In this document: one piece after another, positions 7,235 through 10,446 of the stretch
How positions within the stretch are numbered: the first letter of the stretch is position 1
Layout: the number at the start of each line of letters is the position of its first letter
Assembly: GCA_018650165.1 (NCBI GenBank)
Contig: JABIGM010000046.1
Span: 1-10,446 of the forward strand
Source: Methanobacteriota archaeon
GTDB lineage: Archaea; Thermoplasmatota; Poseidoniia; Poseidoniales; Poseidoniaceae
DNA length: 10,446 nt
Direction of reading: 5' to 3'
Notes under the pieces: model-generated
The model's input: the letters and a program-made list of their open reading frames with translations, nothing else
Databases searched by the model: none
Told to the model about the DNA's origin: nothing
Position numbers and translations under genes: made by a program

Positions 7235-7304
7235 TTTTTTCCAATTGGATTTTTAATTTTTCAATTAGAGTTTAATTTAATTTTTTGGGCTTTTGCTACA
7301 TTTT
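7235..7304 (+). terminator. Multi-T-tract archaeal-type terminator region
   Basis: T runs on + at 7235-40 (6), 7250-54 (5), 7257-61 (5), 7281-86 (6), 7291-94 (4) and 7301-04 (4), directly after the esterase stop. Confidence 0.65.
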
Positions 7305-7341
7305 AGGTAGGAGACTTAAGCCCCCGCCTTCTGCCACAACC

Positions 7342-8160
7342 ATGGTCACCGCGAAAGCACCTGTTAGAATCGATCTTGCAGGGGGATGGTCTGATGCAGC
7401 GCCTTTCTGTGAGCAAGTGGGAGGAGATGTTGTCAATGTCGCAATCAATCATTATGCACATGCAGAAATGACTACAGATTCAGATGGCAAAATCAGTGTT
7501 AACTACGGTTGTGATATTCCAGTTGGTAGTGGCCTTGGGACTTCAGGTGCTATCAATGTGGCATTGATGGCGGCCATCAAAGGTGCTGAAAATTCTGAAG
7601 AATTGGCTTTCAAGTTTGAACAAGTACTGGGTAATCACGGTGGACGCCAAGACCAGTGGGCAGCCAGATATGGGGGAATCCAACATCTCAAATTCATAGG
7701 GCAACATGTAGAGAGAGTACATCTTGTTCCTCCGCCATCATTCAATCGATGGTTGGAGAAACATCTCATTCTTGCAGACACAGGTGTGCGCCATAGTTCA
7801 GGAGACTTACACGATAGTGTGTGGGCTCGTTATGAGGAAGTTTTACCACACCTAATGGATATACGTCAAAGCGGTAAAGACATGGCGACCCATGTCCAAA
7901 GAGATGACCGATTCAATCTATGTGTGGCGATGAAATCCTACACTGCGGCAGTAGGCCGCTTGGATCCTGCATTGAATGCACCTTACCTGATGCTAGAGGA
8001 TATGGCAGATGTTCTAGCCTGGAAAGGCATGGGTGCAGGTGCGGGTGGTTATGTCGGTATTATTTCCCGAAACCCCGAGGCGACTAAAGAAGCGATTCCT
8101 TGGGATATTCTCGACTGGAAAATCGATTATGATGGACTAGTACTTACGGATGATGATTAA
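7342..8160 (+). CDS. GHMP-family sugar kinase, L-fucokinase/HddA-like, stand-alone, 272 aa
   Basis: APVRIDLAGGWSD, IPVGSGLGTSG (ATP-binding loop), EQVLGNHGGRQDQ, LILADTG and KGMGAGAGGY. ATG 7342 is preferred over the track's TTG 7285 (inside the T tract); CTTAAG lies at -27..-22. Confidence 0.88.
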   Translation: MVTAKAPVRIDLAGGWSDAAPFCEQVGGDVVNVAINHYAHAEMTTDSDGKISVNYGCDIPVGSGLGTSGAINVALMAAIKGAENSEELAFKFEQVLGNHGGRQDQWAARYGGIQHLKFIGQHVERVHLVPPPSFNRWLEKHLILADTGVRHSSGDLHDSVWARYEEVLPHLMDIRQSGKDMATHVQRDDRFNLCVAMKSYTAAVGRLDPALNAPYLMLEDMADVLAWKGMGAGAGGYVGIISRNPEATKEAIPWDILDWKIDYDGLVLTDDD

Positions 8161-8465: not shown

Positions 8466-8535
8466 CATTTGAGAAATTTGTTGATACTGCTAAATCAACT
8501 GATTAACCTAAATGCAACCTCTATGACGACATCAC

Positions 8536-8964
8536 ATGGACCGGAGGGGTATTGTTCTATGCATCATCCTGTTTTTTTCATTTTCAACACCTGGATGCTT
8601 TAGTGAGCCAGAATCATTTTACTATTCAGTCGAAGACCCCGAAAAGAATACTAATTCGGTTGAAACATCAGACGTTCTTTTCAATCTAATTTTGGACGAT
8701 GATGGTGGTGTCGACATGGATATTTCAGATTTGGTCGTCACTATCGAACGCTCAGGATCTCACATTTGCTCTACATCACCCTCGGAGGGAAATTGTACAC
8801 TTATTCAATCAGGTGATGATGATTCAACTTGGGAAATCGGAGAAACATTGAATGTTACAGAAAATGGATTCAATATCTGCTCTCAGCACTGCATTATAGC
8901 TTTCAGCGTCGAAGGTCCTGAAGGTGCGAAAATAGTCGGTCCAACAATTCTTAATTCTACATAA
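8536..8964 (+). CDS. Small secreted acidic lipoprotein-like protein, 142 aa, four extra Cys
   Basis: MDRRGIVLCIILFFSFSTPGC has a basic n-region, a hydrophobic h-region and a lipobox-like Cys. The mature part is beta-rich with HICSTSPSEGNCTL, NICSQHCII and GDDDSTWEIGETLNV. Confidence 0.8.
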   Translation: MDRRGIVLCIILFFSFSTPGCFSEPESFYYSVEDPEKNTNSVETSDVLFNLILDDDGGVDMDISDLVVTIERSGSHICSTSPSEGNCTLIQSGDDDSTWEIGETLNVTENGFNICSQHCIIAFSVEGPEGAKIVGPTILNST

Positions 8965-8965
8965 G

Positions 8966-8987
8966 AACACAGAATATTGTGGTTTTT
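8966..8987 (+). terminator. Possible hairpin plus T5 terminator between convergent genes
   Basis: AACACA-gaatat-TGTG(G)TT stem with one bulge, followed by TTTTT (8983-8987), in the 27-nt gap between two stops. Confidence 0.35.
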
Positions 8988-8991
8988 GATG

Positions 8992-10137
8992 TCACGACTC
9001 ATGTGCCGAAAACTTAGCTGAAATAATGCAATGGTCAGAGGCTTCTACTTCACAATCAGTTGAGTATGAACCTAGGAACTCTTGAGTTCCACCATCACCG
9101 ATAATCATCCGATCATATGCACAGGATGACGATTCAGCAGTGTTGGTATTAGTTCCATCAGGTATTATCCATTGATAGTCTCCATTACGAATATCTAATT
9201 CATCTAATTCAGATGAACTTGCATAACTACAATCTGCATTCAGGTCCCCAAGCAAAATGAAATCATCCTCATTGGGGTATTGAAATTTAGCCCATTCGAA
9301 TACATTTACCAAAGCGTTGATCTCATCCACTGCATCATCTGGTTTCACATGTAAGGTGATTAGGACAAATGTATAGTCGTATTCAGTTGATTGAAATCTA
9401 GCAGCGAATGGTTCCCTAGAGAACTCACAATCGGTGTCTGGATAGTGGTGTCCTTCTTCAAGTGGTTTGATTGTATCGTTATTGTAAAAGAAAGCATACT
9501 GCTCTGAGGCATATGGGTTTTCTTCGCAATAAACTCCAGTTCTGTTAGATAGAATCATTCCATATTCACCATATGTCTCAACTTCATCTTGAAGGATGTA
9601 GGGCGCAGTTCCTGGATTTTTGTCCTTTATTTCCTGAACAGCAATAACATCATAATAACTAATTTTTTCTGCAATCTCAGAAAGTTCCTGTTGATTATTG
9701 GCTTTAGATTGTCCAAATACTTCCAAATTCCATGAACCGATTTTAACTTCATGGGGGCACACTTCCTCTTGGTTTTCAGATTCACTAACTGTTGACTCTG
9801 CTTCAAAACCTGACACTAAGTTTGTATTATTGGCAGAGCAATCGGTTACTGGAGCATGACTTTCTGAAATAGGGGACAACGATGCAAGCACTATAATTAA
9901 TGATAAACAAATAGATACCAAACAAACTCCACTAAAGATGTACAACTTTTGTTTGGGCTTCAATTTAGCAAAGAAACTGGTATTGCCCGATCTCTCTTCA
10001 AGTGAAGTAGAATTTGTGATTACTGTGCCGTGAGGAACAGCTCCATTCTCTAAAGCCAATGTCTGCTTTTCGCTAGCAACCCATTCTCCATCATCCAATT
10101 GCCAAAACCCATCTGGACTCAAGACAGGGTCTGACAT
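8992..10137 (-). CDS. Membrane-anchored DNase I-like endonuclease (EEP superfamily), 381 aa
   Basis: IGSWNLEVFGQSK, YDVIAVQEIKD, EQYAFFY, FSREPF, TLHVKPDDAVDEINAL, LLGDLNADCSY, QWIIPD, CAYDR and SDH align in order with bovine DNase I motifs as I recall them. One TM helix (LYIFSGVCLVSICLSLIIVLASL) follows the basic patch KLKPKQK. Confidence 0.92.
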   Translation of the reverse strand: MSDPVLSPDGFWQLDDGEWVASEKQTLALENGAVPHGTVITNSTSLEERSGNTSFFAKLKPKQKLYIFSGVCLVSICLSLIIVLASLSPISESHAPVTDCSANNTNLVSGFEAESTVSESENQEEVCPHEVKIGSWNLEVFGQSKANNQQELSEIAEKISYYDVIAVQEIKDKNPGTAPYILQDEVETYGEYGMILSNRTGVYCEENPYASEQYAFFYNNDTIKPLEEGHHYPDTDCEFSREPFAARFQSTEYDYTFVLITLHVKPDDAVDEINALVNVFEWAKFQYPNEDDFILLGDLNADCSYASSSELDELDIRNGDYQWIIPDGTNTNTAESSSCAYDRMIIGDGGTQEFLGSYSTDCEVEASDHCIISAKFSAHES

Positions 10138-10157
10138 ACTTTGTCCTCAATGCTAGG

Positions 10158-10340
10158 ATGTATCAACAATCCGCTTACCTTGAAGCATATACTATGGTGA
10201 TGGAAGACGGTGTTCTAACTGAAAATGAGCAAAAGTTGCTGAAGTTACAGGCCAAGAATCTCGGACTAAACCAGGCTCGTGTTGATTCTCTAGAAGCATG
10301 GTATGCAGAATCATTGGTATCTTCTAGTGAAGAAGAATAA
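10158..10340 (+). CDS. Small hypothetical protein, 60 aa, TerB/DjlA-N-like helical hairpin motif
   Basis: YLEAYTMVMEDGVLTENEQKLLKLQAKNLGLNQARVDSLE fits the A..DG.lt..E..lL...a..LGl....v..le pattern of TerB-like domains. Confidence 0.7.
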   Translation: MYQQSAYLEAYTMVMEDGVLTENEQKLLKLQAKNLGLNQARVDSLEAWYAESLVSSSEEE

Positions 10341-10446
10341 TCCAGTGGACGCTATTCGTCAGTACCCCGTTTGAGTAAAAGGTAGTCAAAGTGCTCGCGC
10401 CGGGGTGCGCTGAAATTATATTCTGCGCAATTCTCGAATCATTTCG

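What the first reader, a model, noticed from the sequence alone, without database searches (positions are those of the whole stretch)
8992..9750. Archaeal-context nuclease retaining animal DNase I catalytic set and its signature disulfide
Seen: equivalents of bovine DNase I N7, E39 (QEIKD), E78 (EQY), R111 (SREP), H134 (H263, 9351-9349), D168/N170 (GDLN), D212 (YDR) and H252 (H369, 9033-9031) are all present. ADCSY (C303) and CAYDR (C339) are exactly 36 residues apart, as are C173-C209 in bovine DNase I, with QWIIPD between them. Further Cys (YCEE, TDCEF, TDCEV, DHC) could form extra bridges. Known: prokaryotic MnuA/DNase1-like EEP proteins exist, but I recall them often lacking this Cys pair. 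Inference: a close prokaryotic relative of secretory DNase I, relevant to the family's origin or to cross-domain transfer.
Basis: partly seen in the sequence, partly recalled or inferred. Interest (0 to 1): 0.75.

Follow-up and report, generated by a model that had tools for sequence, protein, structure and literature searches.

The report
Membrane-anchored archaeal DNase I-family nuclease
A marine Group II (Poseidoniales) archaeon encodes a cell-surface DNA-cutting enzyme of the same family as animal DNase I, signature cysteine pair included, but hundreds of bacterial and archaeal species carry such enzymes, so it is an ordinary, somewhat divergent member and not a special link to animals.

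Summary
ORF 8992-10137(-) encodes a 381-aa protein whose C-terminal domain (residues 130-381) has every DNase I catalytic and metal residue at the stated codons. C303/C339 align with bovine C173/C209. The best solved-structure matches are DNase1L3 and DNase I (E 1e-31; model TM 0.85).

- At least 507 prokaryotic species genomes encode relatives.
- 91 of 103 sampled prokaryotic domains keep the Cys pair, and 101 of 103 keep the full catalytic set.
- One third of Poseidoniales genomes sampled carry the family.
- Microbial DNase I homologues are already described, and one is characterised (PMC4486849).

In a mixture-model ML tree, eukaryotes form one side of a branch (100/99). The window's clade (100/100, long stem) nests among marine archaeal, myxobacterial and proteobacterial enzymes. 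Forcing it next to eukaryotes is rejected (AU p 0.034). The contig is not chimeric.

What is particular here is a rare subclade with six further invariant ectodomain cysteines. One replaces the Ca-site II Asp107 equivalent. The subclade also has a W-rich cytoplasmic tail and a signal-anchor helix.

Most likely function: a tethered, outward-facing Ca2+/Mg2+-dependent endonuclease.

An earlier scan note on this window (anchor and stalk) agrees.

The parts
8992..10137 (-). Complete gene, 381 aa plus stop: membrane-anchored DNase I-family nuclease
   Evidence: The start 'MSDP/MPDP' is conserved across the clade.
10030..10119 (-). Residues 7-36: W-rich N-terminal cytoplasmic motif (S-P-D-G-F-W-Q...G-E-W-V...E-K-Q...A-L-x-N-G-A-x-P-H)
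   Evidence: Conserved in the clade and duplicated in some members. The same motif heads unrelated membrane proteins in this and related genomes. No Pfam match.
9874..9942 (-). Residues 66-88: single transmembrane helix (signal anchor), preceded by the basic patch KLKPKQK
   Evidence: GRAVY 2.33 with no charged residue. Basic flank on the N side and acidic flank on the C side give N-in/C-out.
9751..9873 (-). Residues 89-129: acidic stalk bounded by invariant C100 (9838-9840) and C127 (9757-9759)
   Evidence: 8 D/E and 0 K/R. Both Cys are present in 29/29 clade members.
8995..9750 (-). Residues 130-381: DNase I-type EEP catalytic domain
   Evidence: PF03372 41 bits. PDB DNase1L3/DNase I at E 1e-31. 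AF2 pLDDT 94. Foldseek TM 0.85 to DNase I, against at most 0.70 for the next fold group.
9349..9351 (-). H263, equivalent to catalytic His134
9031..9033 (-). H369, equivalent to catalytic His252
9229..9231 (-). C303, equivalent to Cys173
   Evidence: Cys in 239/261 family domains.
9121..9123 (-). C339, equivalent to Cys209
   Evidence: Cys in 242/261 family domains.
9526..9528 (-). C204, subclade-specific Cys in an enlarged loop before Y209/E212
   Evidence: Cys only in the 34 subclade domains of 261. 29/29 in the clade.
9427..9429 (-). C237, subclade-specific Cys in the column that is Asp in 200/261 domains (Asp107 equivalent, Ca2+ site II)
   Evidence: The assignment to Asp107 comes from the family consensus Y-x-D-x-x-D-x-F-x-R-E-P and bovine numbering from established knowledge.
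9052..9054 (-). C362, subclade-specific Cys at the end of a beta-strand
9028..9030 (-). C370, subclade-specific Cys next to the catalytic H369
   Evidence: This column is Tyr/Trp/Phe in most other members.
10145..10148 (-). GAGG, Shine-Dalgarno-like, 8-11 nt upstream of the ATG (inference only)
   Evidence: Read from the sequence.
10187..10191 (-). TATAT, possible archaeal TATA box about 50 nt upstream of the ATG (inference only)
   Evidence: Read from the sequence. It lies inside orf60.
8536..8964 (+). orf142: small Cys-containing protein with an N-terminal hydrophobic segment, convergent with the nuclease gene, found with it only in this lineage
   Evidence: Present with the nuclease on the independent contig L087. 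Not found next to it in L007-L009 or L088, nor after Grx in genus relatives. No Pfam or NCBIfam match.

Best explanation
The gene encodes a type II (N-in/C-out) membrane-anchored ectonuclease of the DNase I family in a Poseidoniales (Marine Group II) archaeon. A roughly 65-aa cytoplasmic tail with a lineage-specific W-rich motif and one transmembrane helix hold an acidic stalk and a DNase I-type EEP domain on the outer face of the cell. By homology, H263 and H369 act as the general acid/base pair, oriented by E212 and D342. N137, E169, D298, N300 and D368 hold the catalytic divalent metal. R241 and Y209 contact the DNA minor groove. The enzyme would cut duplex DNA endonucleolytically, leaving 5'-phosphate and 3'-OH ends, using seawater Mg2+/Ca2+. 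The C303-C339 pair, and probably three further pairs (C100-C127, C204-C237, C362-C370), would stabilise the exposed domain; the pairings are inferred. C237 takes the place of a Ca2+-site II aspartate. The most likely biological role is breakdown of dissolved or particle-bound DNA at the cell surface, for nutrients or for clearing DNA-rich matrices; this role is inferred. In evolutionary terms it is a rare, fast-evolving offshoot of a large prokaryotic DNase I-like family. It sits in a variable genome region and is not a special sister of animal DNase I.
For: Family and fold: (E 1e-31 to DNase1L3/DNase I; pLDDT 94; TM 0.85 to DNase I, at most 0.70 for other EEP folds). The catalytic set is complete and aligned. 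Topology: a hydrophobic 23-mer with a basic N flank, and an ectodomain with 57 D/E against 14 K/R, pI 4.05. All sampled relatives carry an N-terminal signal peptide, lipobox or anchor. Eight Cys are invariant in 29/29 clade members, and four of them are found only in this clade. Archaeal context: the flanking orf334-hydrolase-GHMP kinase-glutaredoxin block is syntenic at 71-86% aa identity in same-genus genomes. An independent ENA contig repeats orf-nuclease-orf142-Grx-GHMP with a 98% identical nuclease. Distribution: 507 confirmed loci in prokaryotic species genomes; 100/301 genomes of the order, 89/149 in the window's family, 3/16 others in its genus. Only G000, G192(=G312), G313 and G070(=G314) carry the subclade type, and G314 also has the common type. 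Trees and AU test. A bacterial DNase I homologue is a proven DNase and an archaeal one was modelled (PMC4486849). MnuA H-to-Q mutants confirm the shared mechanism in a sister family (PMC12848938).
Against: No biochemical data exist for any Poseidoniales member. Partner functions expected for a nutrient-scavenging route were not found in this 80%-complete genome: 5'-nucleotidase, Bmp nucleoside-binding protein, PhoD, PhoX, PhoA and a CNT nucleoside transporter. The physiological role therefore stays open. The DNA-contact Arg9 equivalent is Glu139 in this protein, and the surface is very acidic, so affinity for DNA may depend strongly on cations. The promoter elements are guesses.
Confidence: 0.85

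Rival explanations
1. One reading: an exceptional archaeal protein specially close to animal secretory DNase I, marking the family's origin or a recent cross-domain transfer involving this lineage.
For: Top PDB hits are animal DNases. In the word-indexed protein search, animal tandem-domain proteins rank just after the clade, but their scores sum two domains. The Cys pair is shared with animals.
Against: Identity to eukaryotic domains is 31-37%, against 34-42% to other prokaryotic ones. Eukaryotes are one side of a 100/99 branch, and the window's clade lies two starred branches away inside a prokaryotic group. The AU test of window clade plus eukaryotes gives dlnL 26.2, p 0.034. The Cys pair and catalytic set are routine in prokaryotes. 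PDB simply holds no prokaryotic member of this family.
Confidence: 0.04
2. Assembly or binning artefact: a eukaryotic or bacterial DNase gene joined to, or binned with, archaeal DNA.
For: The window is a whole 10.4-kb contig of an 80%-complete MAG. The gene sits near the contig end, in a region of lower GC (0.38-0.40 against 0.44-0.47), and is patchy in the genus.
Against: An independent ENA assembly repeats the same junctions. The flank is syntenic with same-genus genomes. The subclade occurs on contigs of three other genomes titled Poseidoniaceae or Methanobacteriota archaeon MAGs. Its N-terminal motif is shared with other proteins of this and related genomes.
Confidence: 0.02
3. Same enzyme, different role: the surface nuclease serves mainly as a barrier against incoming foreign DNA (viral or transforming), or as a dispersal factor cutting DNA-rich aggregates, rather than for nutrition.
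For: No nucleotidase, phosphatase or nucleoside-uptake partner was found in the genome. The gene lies in a variable region that in relatives holds other exported or surface proteins, a GH57-glucodextranase-type protein and a PKD protein. It is a flexible, patchily distributed gene, as defence and niche genes often are.
Against: The genome is 80% complete and only six partner families were searched. Tethered nucleases in other microbes (mycoplasma MnuA) are linked to nucleotide salvage (PMC12848938). No defence genes flank it in the window.
Confidence: 0.3
4. An EEP-fold hydrolase that acts on a non-DNA substrate (RNA, phospholipid or a phosphoester) despite its DNase I likeness.
For: MnuA2, a DNase I-like enzyme, also cuts RNA (PMC12848938). 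The Arg9 equivalent is Glu, and the loop before Y209 is enlarged.
Against: The DNase I-specific DNA-contact residues R241 (R111) and Y209 (Y76) and the whole active site are kept. The fold match to DNase I is far better than to any other EEP enzyme.
Confidence: 0.05

Closest known systems
Animal DNase I / DNase1L3 (PDB 1dnk, 4awn, 7kiu)
   Same: Same fold (TM 0.83-0.86). All catalytic and Mg2+ ligands match. Cys pair equivalent to C173-C209. Ca-site residues D99 and E112 equivalents are present. Extracellular location.
   Different: 29-37% identity only. Signal-anchor helix plus cytoplasmic tail instead of a cleaved signal peptide. No C101-C104 pair. Asp107 equivalent replaced by Cys. Six extra invariant Cys. 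Arg9 equivalent is Glu. Phe at the Ala114 position, as in most non-mammalian members, so actin inhibition is not expected (inference; PMC9208542 states that actin inhibition is a placental-mammal trait). Very acidic surface.
Prokaryotic DNase I-family enzymes (InterPro IPR016202 microbial members; DNaseTA of Thioalkalivibrio sp. K90mix; Methanohalobium evestigatum homologue; PMC4486849)
   Same: Same family. Secreted or anchored. Acidic surface in salt-adapted members. Active-site residues conserved. Prokaryotic origin.
   Different: The window's protein has no C-terminal HhH or lamin-tail DNA-binding domain. It has a cytoplasmic W-rich tail, a TM anchor and extra cysteines. I did not have the DNaseTA sequence, so its distance to the window's protein was not measured.
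Common Poseidoniales DNase I-like type (e.g. loci L021, L033, L072; the original MG-II genome CM001443)
   Same: Same order of archaea. Same domain, Cys pair and catalytic set. N-terminal hydrophobic anchor.
   Different: Only 35-44% identical. Lacks the six extra Cys and the W-rich tail. Separated from the window's clade by a long stem of 0.76 substitutions per site. The two types coexist in one genome.
Mycoplasma MnuA membrane nucleases (NCBIfam NF045851; CDD cd10283)
   Same: Membrane-associated DNase I-like EEP nuclease with the same two catalytic His. Ca2+/Mg2+-dependent (PMC12848938).
   Different: Scores 59.5 bits against a 185-bit cut-off, and only over residues 133-263. MnuA is lipoprotein-anchored and longer. 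Not the same subfamily.

Membership tests
DNase I family (DNase1-type EEP nucleases) | EEP fold whose nearest solved structures are DNase I / DNase1L3 | tested here: met
   AF2 pLDDT 94. The top ten Foldseek matches are all DNase I/1L3 chains, TM 0.80-0.86; the next group has TM at most 0.70.
DNase I family (DNase1-type EEP nucleases) | Catalytic His134/His252 with partners Glu78/Asp212 | tested here: met
   H263, H369, E212 and D342 are aligned.
DNase I family (DNase1-type EEP nucleases) | Metal ligands Asn7, Glu39, Asp168, Asn170, Asp251 | tested here: met
   N137, E169, D298, N300 and D368.
DNase I family (DNase1-type EEP nucleases) | Conserved Cys173-Cys209 pair | tested here: met
   C303 and C339 align to C173 and C209. 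Formation of the bond itself is not testable with these tools.
DNase I family (DNase1-type EEP nucleases) | Structural Ca2+ site II (Asp99, Asp107, Phe109 carbonyl, Glu112) | tested here: inconclusive
   D234 and E242 are present, but the Asp107 column holds C237 in the whole subclade.
DNase I family (DNase1-type EEP nucleases) | Export signal / extracellular location | tested here: met
   Signal-anchor helix with positive-inside flank. Predicted only.
DNase I family (DNase1-type EEP nucleases) | Score above curated CDD cd10282 / SMART SM00476 / InterPro IPR016202 thresholds | not testable with these tools
   These libraries are not on hand. Pfam offers only the superfamily model.
DNase I family (DNase1-type EEP nucleases) | Ca2+/Mg2+-dependent endonucleolytic DNase activity | not testable with these tools
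   Needs a bench assay.
Pfam PF03372 Exo_endo_phos (EEP superfamily) | Score above the gathering cut-off | tested here: met
   41 bits against 24.5.
MnuA family membrane nuclease (NCBIfam NF045851) | Score above the curated cut-off of 185 bits over the full model | tested here: not met
   59.5 bits, model positions 1-148 of 317 only.
ExeM/NucH extracellular endonuclease (NF033681) | Score above the curated cut-off of 300 bits | tested here: not met
   16.8 bits.

The most novel reading that the evidence does not exclude
The disulfide-bearing DNase I fold is old and widespread in prokaryotes. The narrow eukaryotic DNase1 family (animals and a few unicellular relatives) descends from one ancient transfer out of this prokaryotic pool, a possibility that the published DNase1-origin study does not consider. 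Within that pool, the window's subclade would be a re-engineered form in which a structural Ca2+ site is replaced by a disulfide (Asp107 to Cys, paired with C204) and three further bridges are added, giving a cation-independent, hyper-stable tethered ectonuclease.
Probability: 0.25. Interest if true: 0.5.

Novelty: new member of a known kind. Interest (0 to 1): 0.25.

Why it matters
It corrects an attractive but mistaken impression. An archaeal protein with the full DNase I catalytic set and the C173-C209 cysteines is not a rarity or a bridge to animals. It is one of hundreds of prokaryotic members of the family.

Two modest points remain useful.

- DNase I-type ectonucleases are common in surface-ocean Marine Group II archaea: 100 of 301 genomes sampled, and nearly all genomes in some genera. 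I found no paper in the searchable library that discusses this. It bears on who degrades dissolved DNA in the sea.
- The published account of DNase1 origins (PMC9208542) contains none of the words bacteria, archaea or prokaryote. A rooted cross-domain phylogeny is therefore an open and easy question.

The cysteine-rich subclade could also interest enzymologists looking for salt-tolerant, stable DNases.

Tried and rejected
- **Chimeric or contaminant contig:** rejected by the independent contig L087 and genus-level synteny.
- **Virus-borne gene:** no match in 50,697 phage records. Only 7 distant loci (at most 41% identity) in IMG/VR.
- **Conserved RNA behind the highly conserved 10168-10347 segment:** no Rfam family and no tRNA. 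It is better read as the retained 3' end of a protein gene.
- **Conserved partner gene:** orf142 and glutaredoxin are not linked to the nuclease in other clade members. A glutaredoxin gene also neighbours the nuclease gene in L002/L011, in a different orientation. I treat that as coincidence.
- **Downstream scavenging enzymes:** PF02872, PF02608, PF09423, PF05787, PF00245 and PF07662 were not found in the 80%-complete genome.
- **Pfam identity of the N-terminal motif:** none at E <= 0.01.
- **Pairing of the extra cysteines:** not testable. All four domain Cys co-occur in exactly the same 34 domains, so covariation gives no information, and model coordinates are not exposed.
- **Rooting the tree:** no suitable outgroup sequence (MnuA, CdtB) was available by reference, so the direction of any interdomain transfer was not tested.
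- **CDD cd10282 versus cd10283 scoring:** not available.

Full report
**1. The observation**

The window holds one long ORF on the minus strand at 8992-10137 (381 aa).
- N137, E169 in QEIKD, E212 in EQY, R241 in SREP
- H263 at 9351-9349, D298/N300 in GDLN
- C303 in ADCSY, C339 in CAYDR, D342
- D368-H369 at 9033-9031

phmmer against all PDB chains returns only DNase I-family proteins: human DNase1L3 7kiu at 8e-32 and bovine DNase I 1dnk at 1.4e-30. These hits align residues 130-349 and put C303 on C173 and C339 on C209. The identical 36-residue spacing results from two compensating single-residue indels.

An AlphaFold2 model of residues 125-381, built on a 50-sequence alignment, is confident (pLDDT 94, pTM 0.92). 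Its ten best Foldseek matches are all DNase I or DNase1L3 chains (TM 0.80-0.86). The next fold group (EEPD1, TDP2, CNOT6L and others) reaches at most 0.70.

**2. Anatomy of the protein**

- Residues 1-65 form a hydrophilic tail. It carries a W-rich motif (residues 7-36) and ends in the basic patch KLKPKQK.
- Residues 66-88 are an uncharged hydrophobic helix (GRAVY 2.33).
- Residues 89-129 are an acidic stalk with no K or R.
- Residues 130-381 are the nuclease domain.

The whole ectodomain has 57 D/E against 14 K/R, with pI about 4.05. The positive-inside rule gives N-in/C-out, so this is a tethered ectoenzyme. An earlier scan note on this window (e1-5715365) reached the same reading.

All sampled relatives, bacterial and archaeal, also start with a signal peptide, a lipobox or an anchor. 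The family as a whole is therefore exported.

Pfam sees only the EEP superfamily model (41 bits). The NCBIfam MnuA model scores 59.5 bits against a cut-off of 185, and only over half the model. This is not an MnuA-type protein.

**3. Is the context archaeal, and is the contig sound?**

The window is the whole contig C14 of a 1.75-Mb, 66-contig, 80%-complete genome. Three lines of evidence support the assembly.
- The neighbouring block orf334, alpha/beta-hydrolase, GHMP kinase and glutaredoxin is found in the same order in same-genus genomes, at 71-86% (orf334 49-85%) amino-acid identity. The kinase is found in 39 of 41 related genomes.
- An independent ENA assembly (L087) carries a 98% identical nuclease. 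It is flanked in the same way by orf142, an identical glutaredoxin and the kinase.
- Public records that carry close relatives are titled Candidatus Poseidoniaceae or Poseidoniales archaeon.

The contig is not chimeric.

Downstream of glutaredoxin the genus is variable. Relatives there carry a GH57/glucodextranase-type 1246-1497-aa protein or a PKD-domain protein instead. The last 180 bases of the window (orf60) are 91% identical at protein level to the C-terminal end of a 461-aa ORF in one relative. The nuclease gene and orf142 thus look like cargo of a variable region that tends to hold exported proteins.

**4. How common is this?**

Of these, 507 were confirmed by tblastn. The 80 loci listed include complete genomes of cultured organisms:
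- Methanosarcina sp. Mfa9
- Methanococcoides sp. FTZ1
- Desulfoluna limicola

Also listed are draft genomes of cultured Microbulbifer donghaiensis, Tistlia consotensis and Methanolobus vulcani. Other listed groups are ANME-1, Methanoperedens, Bathyarchaeota, Micrarchaeota, Myxococcota, Proteobacteria and dozens of Poseidoniales, among them the original MG-II genome CM001443.

An exhaustive HMMER search of 1.84 billion cluster representatives found 2389 at E <= 1e-3 and 147 at E <= 1e-30.

Within the order, 100 of 301 genomes carry the family. That is 89/149 in the window's family, 9/149 in the other large family, and 46/49, 19/19, 4/4 and 3/3 in four genera. In the window's own genus only 3 of 16 others have it.

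**5. Is the cysteine pair special?**

It is not.
- In the 261 closest domains, 239 have both cysteines.
- In the labelled set, 91 of 103 prokaryotic rows and 20 of 21 eukaryotic rows have both.
- All 12 prokaryotic rows lacking the pair are methanogens (Methanosarcinales or Methanomicrobiaceae).
- 101 of 103 prokaryotic rows keep the full nine-residue catalytic and metal set.

**6. Phylogeny**

The window's domain is 31.0-36.9% identical to eukaryotic domains (median 33.9). It is 33.7-42.1% identical to prokaryotic domains outside its own clade (median 36.7).

I built a quick LG+G4 tree of 124 rows and a careful LG+C20+F+G4 (PMSF) tree of 58 rows. They agree on three points.
- The eukaryotes (animals plus one protist transcript) are one side of a branch (100/99).
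- The window's clade is monophyletic (100/100) on a long stem (0.76).
- That clade sits inside a 100/99 group with the common Poseidoniales type, Myxococcota and Proteobacteria.

Holding the window's clade together with the eukaryotes costs 26.2 log-likelihood units (AU p 0.034). This is a rejection, though not an overwhelming one, and long branches are involved. The tree is unrooted, so it says nothing about which domain had the family first.

**7. What is particular to the window's clade**

About 33 clusters at 90% identity and four species genomes (G000, G312=G192, G313, G314=G070) carry this type. G314 also carries the common type, so the two are paralogues or xenologues rather than orthologues.

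All 29 full-length representatives share eight ectodomain cysteines: C100, C127, C204, C237, C303, C339, C362 and C370. C204, C237, C362 and C370 occur in no other of the 261 domains. C237 occupies the column that is Asp in 200 of 261 domains. By the consensus Y-x-D-x-x-D-x-F-x-R-E-P and bovine numbering (established knowledge), that column is Asp107, a ligand of structural Ca2+ site II.

My inference is four disulfides, with C204-C237 replacing part of that Ca2+ site. This could not be tested, because no model coordinates are available and the four Cys are invariant together.

The N-terminal motif is conserved, is duplicated in some members, and heads unrelated membrane proteins. One example is a 674-aa protein on contig C39 of the same genome. 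It has no Pfam match.

**8. Mechanism and role**

By homology with DNase I and with the mutationally tested MnuA2 (PMC12848938), the domain should be a Ca2+/Mg2+-dependent endonuclease leaving 5'-phosphate ends. That is shown only to the level of conserved residues and fold.

The strongly acidic surface matches the pattern reported for salt-adapted microbial DNase I homologues (PMC4486849). Phe at the Ala114 position and the lack of the mammalian actin-contact residues predict no actin inhibition. PMC9208542 states that actin inhibition is a trait of placental mammals.

The physiological role is inferred. It could be DNA scavenging, a barrier to foreign DNA, or cutting DNA-rich aggregates. Six families expected for a scavenging route were not found in this incomplete genome.

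**9. Literature**

- Microbial DNase I-family proteins (InterPro IPR016202) were surveyed phylogenetically. A bacterial member (DNaseTA) was characterised and an archaeal one (Methanohalobium) modelled in PMC4486849. That paper does not mention cysteines.
[quoted passage not shown] It contains no occurrence of bacteria, archaea or prokaryote.
- I found no paper in the searchable library that discusses DNase I-type nucleases of Marine Group II archaea.

**10. Verdict**

The protein is a bona fide DNase I-family ectonuclease in an archaeon. It is a member of a large, already recognised prokaryotic family in which the catalytic set and the cysteine pair are the rule, and it is not specially related to animal DNase I. 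Its subclade is a divergent, cysteine-enriched, differently anchored variant of modest interest.

Noticed in passing
window 10030-10119 (-); L100:348-2372 (-); L101:180-2165; L102:83-1204; L103:60-1355: A roughly 30-aa W-rich N-terminal motif (S/E-x-D-G-F/Y-W-Q/K...G-x-W-V/I-P/A-T/S-E/Q-K-Q...A-L-x-x-G-A-x-P-H) heads several unrelated membrane proteins of this and related genomes. One is a 674-aa protein with Asp-rich DxDxDG-type repeats on contig C39 of the same genome. It has no Pfam match. It may be a lineage-specific cytoplasmic module for membrane-anchored surface proteins.
   Followed up: partly
window 8466-10446; L096-L099: The region downstream of the conserved glutaredoxin gene differs among genomes of the same genus. 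The window has orf142 plus the nuclease. Relatives have a GH57 plus glucodextranase-C-module protein of 1246-1497 aa, a PKD-domain protein, or small ORFs. This is a variable region that tends to hold exported or surface proteins.
   Followed up: partly
window 10158-10340 (+): orf60 starts only 20 bp from the divergent nuclease start codon. It is 91% identical to the C-terminal ~45-57 residues of a 461-aa ORF in a same-genus genome (L099:2099-3484). It may be a retained 3' remnant of a gene truncated when the nuclease cassette arrived. No Rfam or tRNA match.
   Followed up: partly
L038, L044-L047, L061, L066, L069, L070, L079, L082, L085: All 12 sampled prokaryotic DNase I-like domains that lack the C173/C209-type pair belong to methanogens (Methanosarcinales, Methanomicrobiaceae); nine have Gly and Tyr instead. 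Their anaerobic relatives ANME-1 and Methanoperedens keep the pair.
   Followed up: no
window 8536-8964 (+): orf142 is a small protein with an N-terminal hydrophobic segment ending in a lipobox-like T-P-G-C and several Cys. It has no family match. It is found with the nuclease only in this lineage (also on L087).
   Followed up: partly
window 7285-8160 (+): The listed TTG start of the GHMP-kinase ORF is probably too far upstream. Matches in relatives begin near residue 18-20, and several show an in-frame stop before that point. The ATG at residue 19 (about 7339) is the likelier start.
   Followed up: no
proteins P0035, P0036, P0122, P0126, P0140: Several eukaryotic or unlabelled proteins carry two or three tandem DNase I domains (for example Owenia fusiformis 586 aa, a Ciona DNase gamma-like protein 540 aa, and unlabelled proteins up to 1551 aa). 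This inflates their whole-protein scores in searches.
   Followed up: no
L063 (record titled Salipiger bermudensis MAG): A contig binned as a Roseobacteraceae MAG carries a DNase I-like gene that nests deep inside the common Poseidoniales clade. This is probably a binning error in that MAG rather than a transfer.
   Followed up: no
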